Shown: positions 2,415 through 62,758 of the stretch, piece after piece
Position numbering within the stretch: position 1 is the first letter of the stretch
Layout of the letters: every line of letters starts with the position of its first letter
NCBI GenBank assembly: GCA_951406725.2
Contig: OX597818.1
Coordinates: 110,856,001-110,920,000 of the forward strand
DNA: 64,000 nt
From: Octopus vulgaris
Lineage: Eukaryota
Direction: 5' to 3'
Made by a program: the position numbers and the translations under genes
The notes under the pieces: model-generated
What the model saw: only the letters and a program-made list of their open reading frames with translations
Told to the model about the DNA's origin: nothing
The model's database searches: none

Positions 2415-2705
2415 GTTATGAGTGCTCCAGTTGATCCAATCAATGGAACGGCCTGCTTGTGAAATTAACGTGCAAGCTGGCTGAGTACTCCTCAGACACA
2501 CATAGCCTTAACGTAGTTCTCAAGGAAATTCAGCACGACACAGAATGTGACAAAAGCAGCTCTTTGAATTACAGGTACTGTTCATTTTTGCCAGCTGACT
2601 GGACTGGAGCAACGTGAAATAAAGTGTCTTGCTCAAGAGCACAACAGGACATATAACCTTATGATCATGAGCTGAATACCCTAACCACTAATCCACGGGC
2701 TTTCA
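2415..2705 (-). mobile_element. tRNA-derived SINE family copy (related copy ~27000-27210)
   Basis: Shares gccagctga.tggactggagcaacgtgaaat..agtgt.ttgctcaaga and ccctaaccact (A-box complement) with 27070-27200. Confidence 0.6.
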
Positions 2706-3142
2706 CAGCTGGATCAGTAAATTATGAACATTCAGTATTGTTGAGTGATAATCAGATATATTTACAAGAATTTGAGGAAAGTTGTCAAAATGAGGGCTCT
2801 GAGAAGAAATATATAATGTTCTCTTAATTGCTGGCAATGATGCAGTATTTCATTTTGCCAACATTATATACCATTAGGTATATTAAAGTTTACAAGTCAA
2901 TATTGTGTTTTACCTTGTGTTAGCAGTGCAGTGTTCACATATGCAAGTTTATCTCTAAAGATTTTTGATAGAATTCAGAGCCGGTCCCCTGTTGTAAGTT
3001 GCAGTGCTGGCTCCGAGTTCTATCCAAAATCTATAGCAGTGGTTCTCAACCTGTGGTCCTCAAAGGTAGTACTGGGGTGGGTGGGTGGAGGGGGGGGGGG
3101 CTCCATGAACTAAATTAAGAATTTCATATACATGTATATATA

Positions 3143-3620
3143 TCATCATCATCATCATCATCGTTTTACATCCGCTTTCCATGCTGGCATGGGTTGGATG
3201 GTTTGACTGGGGATCTGGGAAGCCTGGAGGCTGCACCAGACTCCAATTTGATCTGGCAGTGTTTCTACAGCTGGATGTCCTTCCTAATGCCAACCACTCT
3301 GAGAGTGTAGTGGGTGCTTTTACGTACCACCAGTACAAGGGCCAGTCAGGCGGTACTGGCAACAACCATGCTCAAAAGGTGTTTTTACATGCTACCTGCA
3401 CAGGAGCGTCTGGCAGCACTGGCAACAGCCATGCTCAAATGTTGTTTTTCACATGCTGGTAAAGCAATGCTGGCAACGATCACACTCAAATGGTGCCACC
3501 AGCATGGGAGCCAATCCATGGCCTTGGCAACGATCATGCTCAGATGTGTTTTTAACATTCCACTGGCATGAATGCCAATCAGGCGGTACTGTCATCAGCC
3601 ACGTCAGCAATTTTGATTTG
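3143..3620 (-). mobile_element. RTE-3'-tail repeat (SINE or truncated LINE) with (CAT)n end
   Basis: Reverse complement of the tail of the RTE copy at 59245-59557. Further copies at ~1-140, 1880-2095, 15335-15875, 27630-28065, 31725-32380, 35390-35755, 38240-38585, 47240-47545, 61990-62590. Confidence 0.8.
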
Positions 3621-3719
3621 TTTACACTTGCCTCAATAGGTCTTTGTAAGCAAGCAAAGTTCCTTGTCCAATGAATGAGGGGTACTCATAAGTGGGTTGG
3701 TTACACCCCACATCATATA

Positions 3720-3763
<44 letters not shown>

Positions 3764-4076
3764 AGGGAATATTATTCCTAACTAATTCCATTTATTTTCC
3801 CAAATATAATATATATATATAAATTAGAGGGAATATTATTCCTAACTTACAGGGAAAAATTCCATTTAGAAATAGTAAATCAAATTTCCCCAAATATAAT
3901 ATATATATATAAATTAGAAAAAAATAATTCTACCTTCTATCAATTCAAAAGGAACAATTAAATTACACCATCTAGAAAATTACATATAATAGAAATATTA
4001 AATATAAAATAACAATAATATACCGATGATTAAGTAATGTGCAAAATAATAAATAAAACATATATATTTGGTAGAG

Positions 4077-4319
4077 TAATGACACGTGTTTCGTGGCTGT
4101 ATCTAAGAAATGATTATATTAAAAAAACACCGTCACGGTGCCCTTAACCTGCAAAGGGAGGTAATTCCGATGAAGCGGAAACCACACACGGACCATGGTT
4201 TCAAGGTGTATTGCCTATCATCGGCGTGTGGTAGGCCTCCGCTTCCTCGACGAATTCTCACTCTGCAGGATAGTAGTCGTAAAATCACTTTGATATAAAT
4301 ATAGCCACTCATCAGGTTA
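4077..4319 (-). ncRNA. Type I hammerhead-ribozyme-like motif with ~200-nt insert in stem II
   Basis: Minus strand: taac-CTGATGA-GTGGCT...AGCCAC-GAAACACGTGTC-atta. Palindromic stem III; GUC cleavage triplet. Confidence 0.6.
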
Positions 4320-4419
4320 AAAATAAACTACAATAATAAAATAATTAATAAATATATGTAAATAATCTTTTAAAATATATGTATATATATATATATATAT
4401 GTGTATATATATATATATA

Positions 4420-4922
4420 AATCAAAACAAATCAAAATAGATGAAGATCAATGGAATTTGTATCTTTGTGGTACCAGTGCCGGTGGCACGTGGCACACAA
4501 GAAAACCATCCGAACGTGGCCGTAGCCAGTACTGCATCGACTGGCCTCCGTGCTGTGGGCACGTAACAAACACCATCCGATCGTGGCCGTTTGCCAGCCT
4601 CATCTGGCACCTGTGTCGGTGGCACATAAAAACACCATCCGAGCGTGGCCGTCTGCCAGCCTCGTCTGGCACCTGTGTCGGTGGCACATAAAAAACACCA
4701 TCCGAGCGTGGCCGTTTGCCAGCCTCGTCTGGCACCTGTGTCGGTGGCACATAAAATCACCCACTATACTCTCGGAGTGGTTGGCGTTAGGAAGGGCATC
4801 CAGCTGTAGAAACACTGCCAGATCTGACTGGACTGGTGCAGCTTTCGGGCTCCCCAGACCCCAGTTGAACCGTCCAACCCATGCTAGCATGGAAAGCGGA
4901 CGTTAAATGATGATGATGATGA

Positions 4923-4925
<3 letters not shown>
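4420..4925 (+). mobile_element. RTE-3'-tail repeat with internal ~60-bp tandem units, (GAT)n end
   Basis: Repeated caccatccgagcgtggccgt...ctggcacctgtgtcggtggcacataaaa units, then the conserved tail ggcgttaggaagggcatccagc. Confidence 0.85.
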
Positions 4926-4949
<24 letters not shown>

Positions 4950-4958
<9 letters not shown>

Positions 4959-6420
4959 CTAAATATACATTAAGTGAAAACTAAATATAATACTTTAAAT
5001 TATACAATACTTTAAAATTAATTAACATACACAATGCTATTACAAGCCATTAATACTGGAATTAAAATAAGAAATGGTTCAAATATAGACAATCTCATTA
5101 AATAAACTAACTATATAATTAATATATATGTGTAGTTTCTATAGATTTAAAATATCACTCAATAATATAGTTGACCAGAATATCAATTAATATAAAACCT
5201 AATTTACTTAAATTTAATACTACTTAATAAATATACCACCTAATTATTAAATAATATATTGTCTAACAAAATTAATTCTCAAATTAAATTAAATGTAATA
5301 CATTAGATCCCTTTATTAAAAATAATAATAAATCATTCTAAATAAACAGATATAATAATTAATAACTATCATAACTTATAACTATCAATATATATAAAAA
5401 TGATATAATGGCGAAAATTATTTACTAATGAAAAGTAAGAAAAACATCTAAGCCTCATAAATTAAAGAAAGGTGCAAAAAATATTAGAACAAATAAACAA
5501 AACACTATGAAGACATTCAACCACAACCAACAGTCCACTATAAATCCAGTCAATAAAAATAATAATAATAACAACAACAATCAAACTGAATAAAATACAA
5601 GTTCCAAATAATATTGATAAACAAACAATGTTACGAAGTTTATCGATTAAATTAATTTATCTGGATCTTAAATGTATAAAAATAGGTTTAGCGTCTTATT
5701 AATATACCCAATGCTATTACTAGTCATGAATAATACAATCAAAAATAGGAAATAGTTCAAATATACACAAACCCATTATATAAACTAACTATATTATTAA
5801 TATATATGTAGTAGCTACAGATTTAATATTTCGAACGATAATAAAGTTGAACAAAATATTAATTAATATTTTAGTCTAACGAAACTAATTCTCAAATTTA
5901 TTTATATGTAAAACGTTAAATCCCTTTATAAAAATATATAGATATCATAACTAATAACGTTTGTTACTAATAACTATCAAGAAACTATAAATAAATAATA
6001 ATATTTCAACAACAATAATAACAATAACAATAATAATAATTTCAAACCCAAAACGATTCAAAATCCAAATAATATAGATAATATATAAAATGTAACTTAA
6101 CTTGTCGAAGGAAAAATGTAACTGAATTTTAAATGTAAAAAAATAGTTCTTAGCGTTTATAAAATTTAACGCACAAAGACTTTGTGCAAACAAATAGAAT
6201 AAATTCTCAATGAAAATGGCAAATCATTTTAACACTCCAACTCATTGAGAAATAACACTTGAAAAGAAAACAGATATATAAACAATCAACATTAAAATTC
6301 AAATGGTGCTTTTTAAAAATTTTATTTGTATTTTTAAGTGATGTAAACTTTTTTATTAACAATATATTTTTATAGGAACAAAAGAAAAATAACACTAAAA
6401 GTACAAAAAAATCAAACTAT
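4950..6420. repeat. Very AT-rich low-complexity tract with internal ~270-bp imperfect duplication (5030-5320 vs 5710-5940)
   Basis: caatgctatta...ttcaaatata...taaactaactata...ctaac.aaa.taattctcaaatt occurs twice. Confidence 0.55.

Positions 6421-7933: not shown

Positions 7934-62758
<54,825 letters not shown>

What the first reader, a model, noticed from the sequence alone, without database searches (positions are those of the whole stretch)
4077..4319. Hammerhead-ribozyme core split by a ~200-nt rod-like stem II extension
Seen (minus strand): CTGATGA (4315-4309), stem II GTGGCT/AGCCAC, GAAA (4092-4089), palindromic stem III ACACGTGT, GUC site (4083-4081), short stem I taac/atta with one mismatch. 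The enclosed loop is a CpG-rich island in AT-rich DNA with nested complementary blocks (cctgca/tgcagg, aattc/gaatt, gaagcgga/tccgcttc, accacac/gtgtggt), i.e. one long hairpin. Established: Penelope-like elements and retrozymes carry minimal type I hammerheads with palindromic stem III that act as dimers. Inference: an atypical giant-loop hammerhead that length-limited motif searches would miss. It lies ~3.6 kb downstream of the stop codon on the gene's sense strand, so it could cut read-through transcripts.
Basis: partly seen in the sequence, partly recalled or inferred. Interest (0 to 1): 0.72.

Follow-up and report, generated by a model that had tools for sequence, protein, structure and literature searches.

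The report
Hammerhead repeat interrupted by retrozyme fragment
This is an old copy of a very common jumping repeat that carries a hammerhead self-cutting RNA motif, and its "giant loop" is a recent insertion of a piece of a second ribozyme-type repeat, so the odd shape is an accident of nesting and this copy is likely not a working new kind of ribozyme.

Summary

They are not chance. The 3' half, AGCCACGAAACACGTGTC, occurs 784 times in this 2.8-Gb animal genome against 1 for the control.

The core belongs to a ~369-nt AT-rich non-coding repeat that sits in (TA)n microsatellites. Most copies are 5'-truncated and many lie head-to-head, which is the insertion style of Penelope-like elements (PLEs). 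Its type I hammerhead has a 4-bp helix I, a palindromic helix III and a long helix II (13 + 9 bp, 65 nt between GTGGCT and AGCCAC). Rfam does not detect it.

The "~200-nt rod" is not an evolved feature. 145 nt (about 4271-4127) match part of a young 360-bp tandem repeat with no substitution and one 2-nt deletion. That repeat is retrozyme-like and has its own variant core, CCGAUGA. The piece sits in the end loop of helix II of an old host copy (88-91% identical to a reference copy). None of the 30 copies picked by a loop word has such an insert.

This copy also has an A.C mismatch at the base of helix I. I rate it a decayed nested repeat. Earlier notes of this scan describe the 360-bp repeat on other DNA.

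The parts
3911..4386 (-). Old copy of the ~369-nt AT-rich hammerhead-bearing repeat (host element), interrupted at 4270/4127
   Evidence: positions 11-131 of reference copy L026:1338-1706 match window 4386-4270 (90.9% identity). Positions 135-364 match window 4127-3894 (88.2%); the last ~17 nt of that are (TA)n. Searches show homology to 20 of 20 family loci over about 3900-4125.
4316..4319 (-). Helix I, 5' strand (UAAC)
   Evidence: It pairs with GUUA in uninterrupted copies.
4309..4315 (-). Hammerhead core strand CUGAUGA (C3-A9)
   Evidence: CTGANGA is kept in 26 of 30 family copies picked by a loop word.
4283..4308 (-). Helix II, 5' arms: GUGGCUAUAUUUA, then (C)AAAGUGAUU
   Evidence: fold of the uninterrupted copy: 13 bp + 9 bp; 95.9% and 93.7% of cells paired in 30 distinct rows.
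4127..4271 (-). Inserted fragment of the 360-bp tandem repeat (unit positions 34-180). The bases at 4271-4270 and at 4127 could belong to either partner.
   Evidence: 109 other genomic matches at 85-100% identity, most at 96-99%, covering only this part of the query; 0 substitutions and one 2-nt deletion against L016. It replaces reference positions 132-134 (TAA) in the end loop of helix II.
4218..4224 (-). Inner, second hammerhead-like core strand CCGAUGA (U4 replaced by C), inside the insert
   Evidence: 794 exact copies of the surrounding 35-mer, and 100 of 100 listed read CCGATGA.
4191..4202 (-). Inner motif: GAAA (4202-4199), palindromic ACCAUGGU (4199-4192), C17 at 4191; predicted cut 4191|4190
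   Evidence: Read. No Rfam hit.
4093..4115 (-). Helix II, 3' arms: AAUCAUUUC, then UUAGAUACAGCCAC
4081..4092 (-). GAAA (4092-4089), helix III ACACGUGU (4089-4082), C17 at 4081; predicted cleavage between 4081 and 4080
   Evidence: The 18-mer AGCCACGAAACACGTGTC occurs 784 times in the genome against 1 for the control.
4077..4080 (-). Helix I, 3' strand. It reads AUUA here and GUUA in most copies, so position 1.1 makes an A.C mismatch.
   Evidence: the C-G pair is kept in 22 of 30 rows.
4375..4419 (.). (TA)n microsatellite at the 5' side of the host element
   Evidence: Family copies lie between (TA)n runs.
7934..8977 (-). Long open frame on the same strand (A/E/K-rich).
   Evidence: mechanical ORF list only; not examined further.

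Best explanation
The hammerhead core at 4319-4077 (minus strand) belongs to an old copy of a ~369-nt non-coding repeat that lies in (TA)n microsatellites in thousands of copies. The ~200-nt 'stem II extension' is that family's own 65-nt helix II hairpin plus a 145-nt piece of a young 360-bp tandem repeat sitting in the hairpin's end loop.

Shown by the calls:
- the two-part anatomy of the loop;
- the copy numbers;
- the clean insertion junctions with 1-2 nt of shared bases;
- the age contrast: the host is 88-91% identical to another copy, while the insert has no substitution;
- the absence of the insert from the other copies examined.

Inferred:
- The family is a non-autonomous relative of Penelope-like elements. 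Its RNA is predicted to cut itself after GUC, probably as a dimer through the palindromic helix III.
- The 3' cleavage product, or an RNA starting close to that point, would be the main template copied back into (TA)n DNA.
- The insert likely came from an aberrant reverse-transcription or break-repair event that used RNA or DNA of the abundant 360-bp repeat.
- This particular copy is likely inactive, because helix I is reduced to three A-U pairs with an A.C mismatch at its base and no partner copy lies within 64 kb.
For: Anatomy:
- Searches show the window equals the family reference with reference positions 132-134 replaced by unit positions 34-180 of the tandem repeat.
- of 110 matches, only the window's own place covers the flanks. 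The other 109 lie within query 59-204.
- the source is a 360-bp tandem array with 99% matches between units.

Family:
- 784 hits for the 3' half of the core against 1 for the control.
- 3584 hits for a tail word against 0.
- 478 hits for a helix II loop word against 1.
- 40 near-full-length copies at 90-100% identity, from 2525 first-look candidates of which 40 were scored.
- The copies lie between (TA)n runs.

Hammerhead build in uninterrupted copies:
- UAAC-CUGA[U/A]GA-GUGGCU...AGCCAC-GAAA-CACGUGU-C-GUUA.
- Helix II is 13 + 9 bp with a 28-nt end loop (z = -3.7).
- In 30 copies chosen by a loop word, CTGANGA is kept in 26, GAAA in 27 and CACGTGTC in 19; all parts are intact in 7.
- The only core difference between the two subfamilies is at the free position N7.
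- 94.6% of cells pair in register against 33-45% when the partner is slid.
- The end loop tolerates length change. 6 of 30 loop-word copies lack 9-18 nt there.

PLE-like insertion style:
- Of 100 copies taken in genome order by a tail word, only 19 begin upstream of the cut: 7 at <=20, 3 at 21-85, 9 at 86-181. 58 begin at reference positions 182-215, just after the cut at 181|182. 23 begin at 216-283.
- Many (-,+) head-to-head pairs lie 120-700 bp apart.
- These traits and the helix proportions match passages read in PMC4209133 and PMC8557442.

Another repeat in this genome has the same build with different helix sequences (L147).
Against: - No self-cleavage data exist.
- Rfam finds no hammerhead in the window copy or in an uninterrupted copy at E<=10.
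- The minimum-energy folds do not form helices I and III.
- There are no compensatory changes within the family: 0 of 28 pairs, and all 500 shuffles reach the observed values. The stems therefore rest on sequence and on one cross-family comparison only.
- No autonomous Penelope-like partner was found. 0 of 30 GIY-YIG loci carry the family. I saw no PLE-type frame among the 104 long frames of the 50 loci L021-L070, but that was by eye, without a Pfam scan.
- The pile-up of 5' ends is mostly 8-18 nt downstream of the predicted cut, with only 8 of 100 at reference positions 181-184. It lies in a CCAAATATATACG stretch that merges with the (TA)n target, so a transcription start or microhomology joining could produce it without any cleavage.
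- For one vertebrate PLE, cleavage was not needed for insertion in vitro, and no reads ended at the cut site (PMC11167929, passages read).
- How the 145-nt piece got in is not shown.
Confidence: 0.85

Rival explanations
1. An evolved giant-loop hammerhead. The ~200-nt rod would be a selected extension of stem II, and the whole would work as one atypical ribozyme.
For: - The core and all three helices can be drawn.
- The enclosed part folds very stably.
- An insertion in the end loop of helix II need not disturb the core.
Against: - Of the 110 matches, only the window's own place joins the hammerhead flanks to the rod.
- 0 of 30 copies chosen by a loop word have an insert.
- The rod is identical, bar a 2-nt deletion, to a fragment of a 360-bp tandem repeat. 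The host is 9-12% diverged from another copy.
- Contigs of other family copies in public runs skip exactly this part (joints 4125-4127 to 4270-4271).
Confidence: 0.03
2. A hammerhead co-opted by the host. The repeat copy lies in sense, 3.6 kb behind the stop codon of the gene at 7934-8977, and would cut long 3' UTRs or read-through transcripts.
For: - Same strand as the open frame.
- The core nucleotides are all intact.
- Hammerheads in 3' UTRs are known (Clec2, in PMC6155905, passage read).
Against: - Helix I is down to three A-U pairs, with A.C at 1.1-2.1.
- Helix III needs a dimer, and no second copy lies in the 64 kb.
- The copy is as diverged as neutral copies.
Confidence: 0.05
3. A chimera made in one step. 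The reverse transcriptase copying the host repeat's RNA would have jumped to an RNA of the 360-bp repeat and back, so host and insert arrived together.
For: - Same orientation of host and insert.
- 1-2 nt of shared bases at both junctions.
- Both repeats show Penelope-style insertions.
- PLE enzymes start copying inside RNAs without homology (PMC11167929, abstract and passages).
Against: The insert has 0 substitutions in 145 nt, although it holds about 11 CpGs. The host differs from another copy at 7 of 117 and 18 of 227 aligned bases, which points to a later event.
Confidence: 0.05
4. A chance match to the hammerhead consensus in AT-rich DNA.
For: A reader scanning 64 kb by eye can find short motifs, and CTGATGA alone is not rare.
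Against: 784 genomic copies of the 18-mer against 1 for the control. 0.01 expected in the window. The same arrangement recurs in uninterrupted copies.
Confidence: 0.01

Closest known systems
Minimal or atypical type I hammerheads of Penelope-like elements (Cervera and de la Pena 2014, PMC4209133; passages read)
   Same: - Type I topology.
- Short helix I (4 bp here, 4-5 bp there) and a helix II larger than usual.
- A very small palindromic helix III that implies dimers.
- Mostly single dispersed motifs, with pairs on opposite strands 100-700 bp apart.
   Different: - Helix II here is 13 + 9 bp with a 28-nt loop (77 nt from the end of CUGAUGA to GAAA), against 7-8 bp there.
- No RT/GIY-YIG frame was found next to the copies examined.
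- Rfam models do not detect it.
Insertion hallmarks of Penelope-like elements: (TA)n targets, strong 5' truncation, adjacent inverted 5'-truncated copy, optional 30-40-bp tail (Craig et al. 2021, PMC8557442; Frangieh et al. 2024, PMC11167929; passages read)
   Same: - The host family lies in (TA)n, is mostly 5'-truncated and often head-to-head.
- The 360-bp repeat's insertions end at unit position 292 on one arm and 336 on the other, a 44-nt difference.
   Different: Both repeats are non-coding and short. The partner element is not identified. Craig et al. noted 'HHR_half_core' cases with the two core halves 35-50 nt apart but did not resolve them.
[quoted passage not shown]
   Same: The source of the insert is a 360-bp tandem repeat with a rod-like fold. 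At the tip of the rod is a type I hammerhead-shaped motif with a 6-bp helix I and a palindromic helix III.
   Different: - The core reads CCGAUGA (U4 to C), with U.U at 10.1-11.1.
- No Rfam hit.
- Circles are not shown.
- In the window only 145 of the 360 nt are present, so it cannot act as a retrozyme there.
Discontinuous hammerhead in the 3' UTR of mammalian Clec2 genes (Martick et al. 2008, as described in the review PMC6155905; passage read)
   Same: A hammerhead core whose two halves are far apart because a peripheral helix holds a long insert, lying behind a coding region.
   Different: There the large element is helix I of a type III motif (150-1500 nt), and it is conserved between species and active. 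Here it is helix II of a type I motif in a single decayed repeat copy.
Sm-alpha, the SINE-like repeat of Schistosoma mansoni with a type I hammerhead (named in a figure legend of PMC6155905; details recalled)
   Same: A short non-coding high-copy retroposon with an internal type I hammerhead.
   Different: Sm-alpha carries a canonical compact hammerhead with loop-loop contacts. This family has the PLE-type small helix III and a long helix II.

Membership tests
Hammerhead ribozyme, type I | Conserved core in order: CUGANGA ... GAAA ... UH, with cleavage after H17 | tested here: met
   CUGAUGA 4315-4309, GAAA 4092-4089, GUC 4083-4081. Uninterrupted copies read the same.
Hammerhead ribozyme, type I | Three helices around the core with G10.1-C11.1 and A15.1-U16.1, helix I open | tested here: met
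   helix II 95.9% and 93.7% paired, helix I 90.8%, helix III 98.3% over 30 distinct rows. In the window copy helix I has an A.C mismatch at 1.1-2.1.
Hammerhead ribozyme, type I | Match to the curated covariance models (Rfam hammerhead families) | tested here: not met
   No hammerhead hit at E<=10 on window 3600-4900 or on the uninterrupted copy L026:1338-1706. The likely causes are the 65-nt helix II insert and the tiny helix III.
Hammerhead ribozyme, type I | Base pairs supported by compensatory change | tested here: inconclusive
   0 of 28 pairs change on both sides, and all 500 shuffles reach the observed values, as expected for young copies of one source. The only support is one other repeat (L147) with the same build and different helix sequences.
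Hammerhead ribozyme, type I | Site-specific self-cleavage | not testable with these tools
   The only indirect sign is that 58 of 100 copies begin 1-34 nt after the predicted cut. Other causes are possible.
Penelope-like element hammerhead / PLE-derived non-autonomous repeat | Short helix I, enlarged helix II, very small palindromic helix III | tested here: met
   helix I 4 bp, helix II 13 + 9 bp, helix III ACACGUGU. Criteria taken from PMC4209133 (passages read).
Penelope-like element hammerhead / PLE-derived non-autonomous repeat | Lies in the pseudo-LTR of an element that encodes RT and a GIY-YIG endonuclease | tested here: inconclusive
   0 of 30 GIY-YIG loci hold the family. I saw no PLE-type frame among the 104 long frames of the 50 loci L021-L070, by eye and without a Pfam scan. 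The genome does hold many PLE frames: 6136 first-look candidates, many 781 aa long.
Penelope-like element hammerhead / PLE-derived non-autonomous repeat | Insertion style: microsatellite target, strong 5' truncation, adjacent inverted 5'-truncated copy | tested here: met
   (TA)n on both sides; 81 of 100 copies begin after the cut and 7 of 100 reach the 5' end; many (-,+) pairs with palindromic junctions.
Metazoan non-LTR retrozyme (source of the insert) | Tandem repeats of 150-450 bp | tested here: met
   period 360, 3.8 copies, 99% matches; arrays with 359-360-bp spacing on many chromosomes.
Metazoan non-LTR retrozyme (source of the insert) | Canonical type I hammerhead in each unit | tested here: not met
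   The core reads CCGAUGA in 100 of 100 listed copies, with U.U at 10.1-11.1. No Rfam hit at E<=1 on three arrays. The shape is otherwise that of a type I hammerhead.
Metazoan non-LTR retrozyme (source of the insert) | Expressed as small circular RNA | not testable with these tools
   Only contigs of runs whose RNA nature is a guess.
Discontinuous hammerhead (Clec2 type) | Long insert in a peripheral helix that is conserved between species, with shown activity | tested here: not met
   The insert is a repeat fragment seen in this family copy only. Conservation between species was not tested.

The most novel reading that the evidence does not exclude
This genome holds a class of Penelope-type hammerheads with 60-80-nt helix II hairpins that Rfam and the published descriptors miss. 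They cut in vivo and so set the 5' ends of most new copies. The nested copy in this window would be a fossil of the same reverse transcriptase mis-inserting RNA of the 360-bp retrozyme-like repeat into another ribozyme's loop, which would tie both repeats to one machinery.
Probability: 0.2. Interest if true: 0.5.

Novelty: new member of a known kind. Interest (0 to 1): 0.3.

Why it matters
For this locus the result is mainly a correction. A striking "giant-loop ribozyme" is one repeat nested in another, so it should not be counted as a new ribozyme architecture.

Two smaller points remain of use:
- Uninterrupted copies of the host family carry a complete hammerhead core whose halves lie 77 nt apart. 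Rfam does not find them. Length-limited surveys therefore undercount Penelope-type hammerheads in this kind of genome. This may bear on the "half core" cases left open by Craig et al. 2021.
- 58 of 100 copies begin within 34 nt after the predicted cut. That gives a cheap, testable hint on whether such ribozymes shape the RNA that is copied back into DNA, a question still open for Penelope-like elements.

Tried and rejected
- **Rfam**: no hammerhead or other credible family on the window copy, on an uninterrupted copy or on three arrays of the 360-bp repeat. The hits were AT-microsatellite look-alikes of miRNA models.
- **Earlier notes of this scan**, by place and by the insert's sequence: nothing.
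- **Public runs**: no RNA holder listed. All four runs laid are contigs. They cover other copies of both repeats. No contig bridged the host/insert junctions and no molecule ends can be read, so nothing follows for expression or cleavage at this locus.
- **Covariation within the family**: uninformative, 0 compensatory pairs.
- **Search for the autonomous partner**: I looked by eye through the 104 frames of 110 aa or more in the 50 loci L021-L070 (not scanned against Pfam). I also ran BLAST of the unit against 30 GIY-YIG loci. Neither gave a link. Comparing, by eye, the chromosome-1 places of the tail word with those of the GIY-YIG hits showed none within 5 kb of each other.
- **Exact-cut footprint**: only 8 of 100 copies start at reference positions 181-184. 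The peak is at 189-199, so I do not claim that copies begin "exactly at the cut".
- **First guesses dropped**: a small RNA gene or snoRNA (TGATGA box, a T-run after a hairpin) and a pre-miRNA-like hairpin, both dropped.
- One search was an unfinished script with no result.

Full report
**1. The observation**

On the minus strand the sequence reads ttaac-CTGATGA-GTGGCT ... AGCCAC-GAAA-CACGTGT-C-atta.

The enclosed stretch is richer in G+C than its surroundings. The whole of 4070-4325 folds at -83.9 kcal/mol, z = -4.9.

Rfam finds nothing credible in 3600-4900 at E<=10.

**2. The middle is a fragment of another repeat**

I searched the window's own genome (2.8 Gb, an animal by the earlier notes of this scan) with 4060-4330. 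This gave 110 matches. Only the window's own place covers the hammerhead flanks. The other 109 lie within query 59-204, most at 96-99% identity, and stand 359-360 bp apart in arrays, often as (-,-,+,+) head-to-head blocks.

One array (L016) has period 360, 3.8 units and 99% matches.

Aligned with a unit of that array and with an uninterrupted copy of the host repeat, the window is the host repeat with reference positions 132-134 (TAA) replaced by unit positions 34-180. The insert shows no substitution and one 2-nt deletion. One or two bases at each junction could belong to either partner.

**3. The flanks belong to a large repeat family with a complete hammerhead**

- AGCCACGAAACACGTGTC (up to 1 mismatch) occurs 784 times against 1 for the reversed control.
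- A word from the tail occurs 3584 times against 0.
- A word from the helix II loop occurs 478 times against 1.
- A real copy (L026:1338-1706, 369 nt) finds 40 near-full-length copies at 90-100% identity, among 2525 first-look candidates of which 40 were scored.
- The copies lie between (TA)n runs.

Uninterrupted copies read UAAC-CUGA[U/A]GA-GUGGCU-(65 nt)-AGCCAC-GAAA-CACGUGU-C-GUUA. The 65 nt extend helix II to 13 bp, an internal loop, 9 bp and a 28-nt end loop (z = -3.7).

The window's insert sits in that end loop. The loop also varies in length among copies: 6 of 30 loop-word copies lack 9-18 nt there. None of the 30 copies chosen by a loop word upstream of the insertion point carries an insert.

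**4. State of the family's hammerhead**

In those 30 copies the parts are kept as follows:

| Part | Kept in |
|---|---|
| UAAC | 27 |
| CTGANGA | 26 |
| GTGGCT | 25 |
| AGCCAC | 23 |
| GAAA | 27 |
| CACGTGTC (holds CpG) | 19 |
| GTTA | 21 |
| All parts at once | 7 |

- The two subfamilies differ in the core only at N7, the free position.
- On 30 distinct rows, 94.6% of cells pair in register against 33-45% with the partner slid.
- No pair changes on both sides, and all 500 shuffles reach the observed values. The copies therefore look like neutral descendants of a structured source, and the family gives no covariation support.
- Rfam does not find a hammerhead in an uninterrupted copy at E<=10.
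- A different short repeat beside a C-terminal-endonuclease PLE frame (L147) has the same build with other helix sequences: UUGG-CUGAUGA-GUACU-(~50 nt rod)-AGUAC-GAAA-CGAUCGU-A-CCAA.

**5. What kind of element**

I took the first 100 exact tail-word places in genome order (30 loci, 70 places fetched). I aligned each to the reference copy, in which the cut lies after position 181.

| Alignment begins at reference position | Copies (of 100) |
|---|---|
| <=20 | 7 |
| 21-85 | 3 |
| 86-181 | 9 (three at 181) |
| 182-190 | 15 |
| 191-200 | 31 |
| 201-215 | 12 |
| 216-283 | 23 |

By my arithmetic a uniform spread would put about 7 in 182-200, where 46 are seen. These boundaries are ends of local alignments. 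They lie in CCAAATATATACG, which merges with the (TA)n target and with palindromic head-to-head junctions.

Many pairs are (-,+) with their 5' ends facing each other.

Three traits read in the papers fit this picture:
- A short helix I, a large helix II, a tiny palindromic helix III, and opposite-strand pairs 100-700 bp apart are described for PLE hammerheads in PMC4209133.
- (TA)n targets, strong 5' truncation and an adjacent inverted truncated copy are described for PLEs in PMC8557442.
- The genome holds very many PLE frames: 6136 GIY-YIG candidates, many with 781-aa open frames.

However, 0 of 30 such loci carry this family, and I saw no PLE frame beside the copies examined (by eye only). 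I therefore file the host as a non-autonomous repeat of PLE style with its partner unknown.

**6. The insert's source**

The 360-bp unit carries, at the tip of its rod, a type I hammerhead-shaped motif: ACCACACG-CCGAUGA-UAGG-CAAUACA-CCUU-GAAA-CCAUGGU-C-CGUGUG. In the window CCGATGA is at 4224-4218 and the predicted cut is at 4191|4190.

- All 100 listed copies of 794 exact 35-mers read CCGATGA, that is U4 replaced by C.
- Positions 10.1-11.1 are U.U.
- Rfam gives no hit.
- Eight short insertions of this repeat are 99-100% identical to the unit. One arm ends at unit position 292. Where there is an inverted partner, it ends at 336. Their 5' ends vary. This resembles the PLE "tail" described in PMC8557442 and PMC11167929.
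- The window's fragment (34-180) shares neither end, so it is not a regular insertion of that repeat.

Earlier notes of this scan (e1-8666756, e1-8663039) describe the same 359-nt repeat on other DNA as a Penelope-mobilised retrozyme. I checked only the points given here.

**7. Order of events and state of this copy**

The host differs from the reference copy at 7 of 117 and 18 of 227 aligned bases, plus gaps. That places it at the low end of the 90-95% seen among the best copies. The insert has no substitution in 145 nt, although it holds about 11 CpGs. The insert therefore came later.

In this copy position 1.1 is A, not G, a change within the family's CpG at the cut site. That leaves helix I with three A-U pairs. 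Two more changes weaken helix II (UUAGAUAC here for UUAAAUAU), and one weakens its inner part.

No second copy of the family lies in the 64 kb, so a dimer in cis is not possible.

The copy lies in sense, 3.6 kb behind the stop of the long frame at 7934-8977. Whether transcripts reach it is unknown. Public runs gave only contigs of other repeat copies.

**8. Mechanism, with its status**

Shown:
- the two-layer anatomy;
- the family sizes;
- the insertion style;
- the age contrast.

Inferred:
- The family's RNA would cut itself after GUC, probably as a dimer through ACACGUGU.
- The 3' product, or an RNA that starts nearby, would be copied into (TA)n DNA by a PLE enzyme.
- The 145-nt piece would have entered through an aberrant copying or repair event. 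PLE enzymes start inside RNAs without homology and cut AT-rich DNA (PMC11167929).
- This copy is dead.

Against the cleavage step:
- The 5' ends peak 8-18 nt after the cut, not at it.
- In the one PLE studied in vitro, cleavage was not needed for insertion (PMC11167929).

**9. Verdict**

Novelty: a new member of a known kind. Interest is low to moderate. The useful residue lies at the family level, in the long helix II that escapes searches and the pile-up of 5' ends just after the cut.

I searched the paper library for hammerheads with "octopus", with "mollusc" and "retrozyme", and with "helix II", "extended" and "Penelope-like". None of the listed titles and abstract openings, and none of the passages I read, describes this family. 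I did not look at the supplements of PMC4209133 or PMC8557442, which list motifs.

Noticed in passing
L016:1108-2479; L131-L138; many places listed: The 360-bp tandem repeat forms arrays in (TA)n, often as head-to-head blocks (-,-,+,+). Eight short insertions are 99-100% identical to the unit. One arm ends at unit position 292 and the inverted partner at 336, a 44-nt difference like the PLE 'tail'. Its core reads CCGAUGA in 100 of 100 listed copies.
   Followed up: partly
L147:116-545 (inverted pair), with frames at L147:1471-2331 and 2531-3253 on the minus strand: A second, unrelated short repeat carries a canonical-core type I hammerhead with a ~58-nt helix II and a palindromic helix III (ACGAUCGU), only ~37 nt from its 3' end. 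It forms a perfect head-to-head pair next to (TA)n. About 0.9 kb away is a PLE frame with RT followed by a C-terminal GIY-YIG domain. Whether they belong together is open.
   Followed up: partly
window 3145-3345 and 4729-4926; tandem 63-nt units at 4558-4756: Two G+C-rich repeat copies in inverted orientation (104 nt at 86% and 68 nt at 90% complementary) bracket the hammerhead unit and its (TA)n runs. One holds 3.2 units of a 63-nt tandem repeat. The region looks like a nest of insertions in one microsatellite.
   Followed up: no
window 3760-3900, 4925-5395 and 5698-5980: Further AT-rich modules are shared with some family loci (for example L021, L026). They are separated from the hammerhead unit by (TA)n, so the 369-nt unit may be part of a longer composite, or these may be separate repeats that use the same target.
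   Followed up: no
window 7934-8977 (minus strand): A 347-aa open frame that ends in a long alanine/glutamate/lysine-rich low-complexity stretch. It is probably the last coding exon of the gene upstream of the finding.
   Followed up: no
G000, places listed: GIY-YIG (PF01541) gives 6136 first-look candidates. Many places have identical scores and 781-aa open frames, which suggests a young and possibly active Penelope-like family.
   Followed up: no
runs X6, X9, X16 laid on window 3950-4400: Contigs of runs guessed to be RNA hold the 360-bp repeat (one contig of 390 nt, one at depth 813) and pieces of the hammerhead family. This is a hint, no more, that both are transcribed.
   Followed up: no
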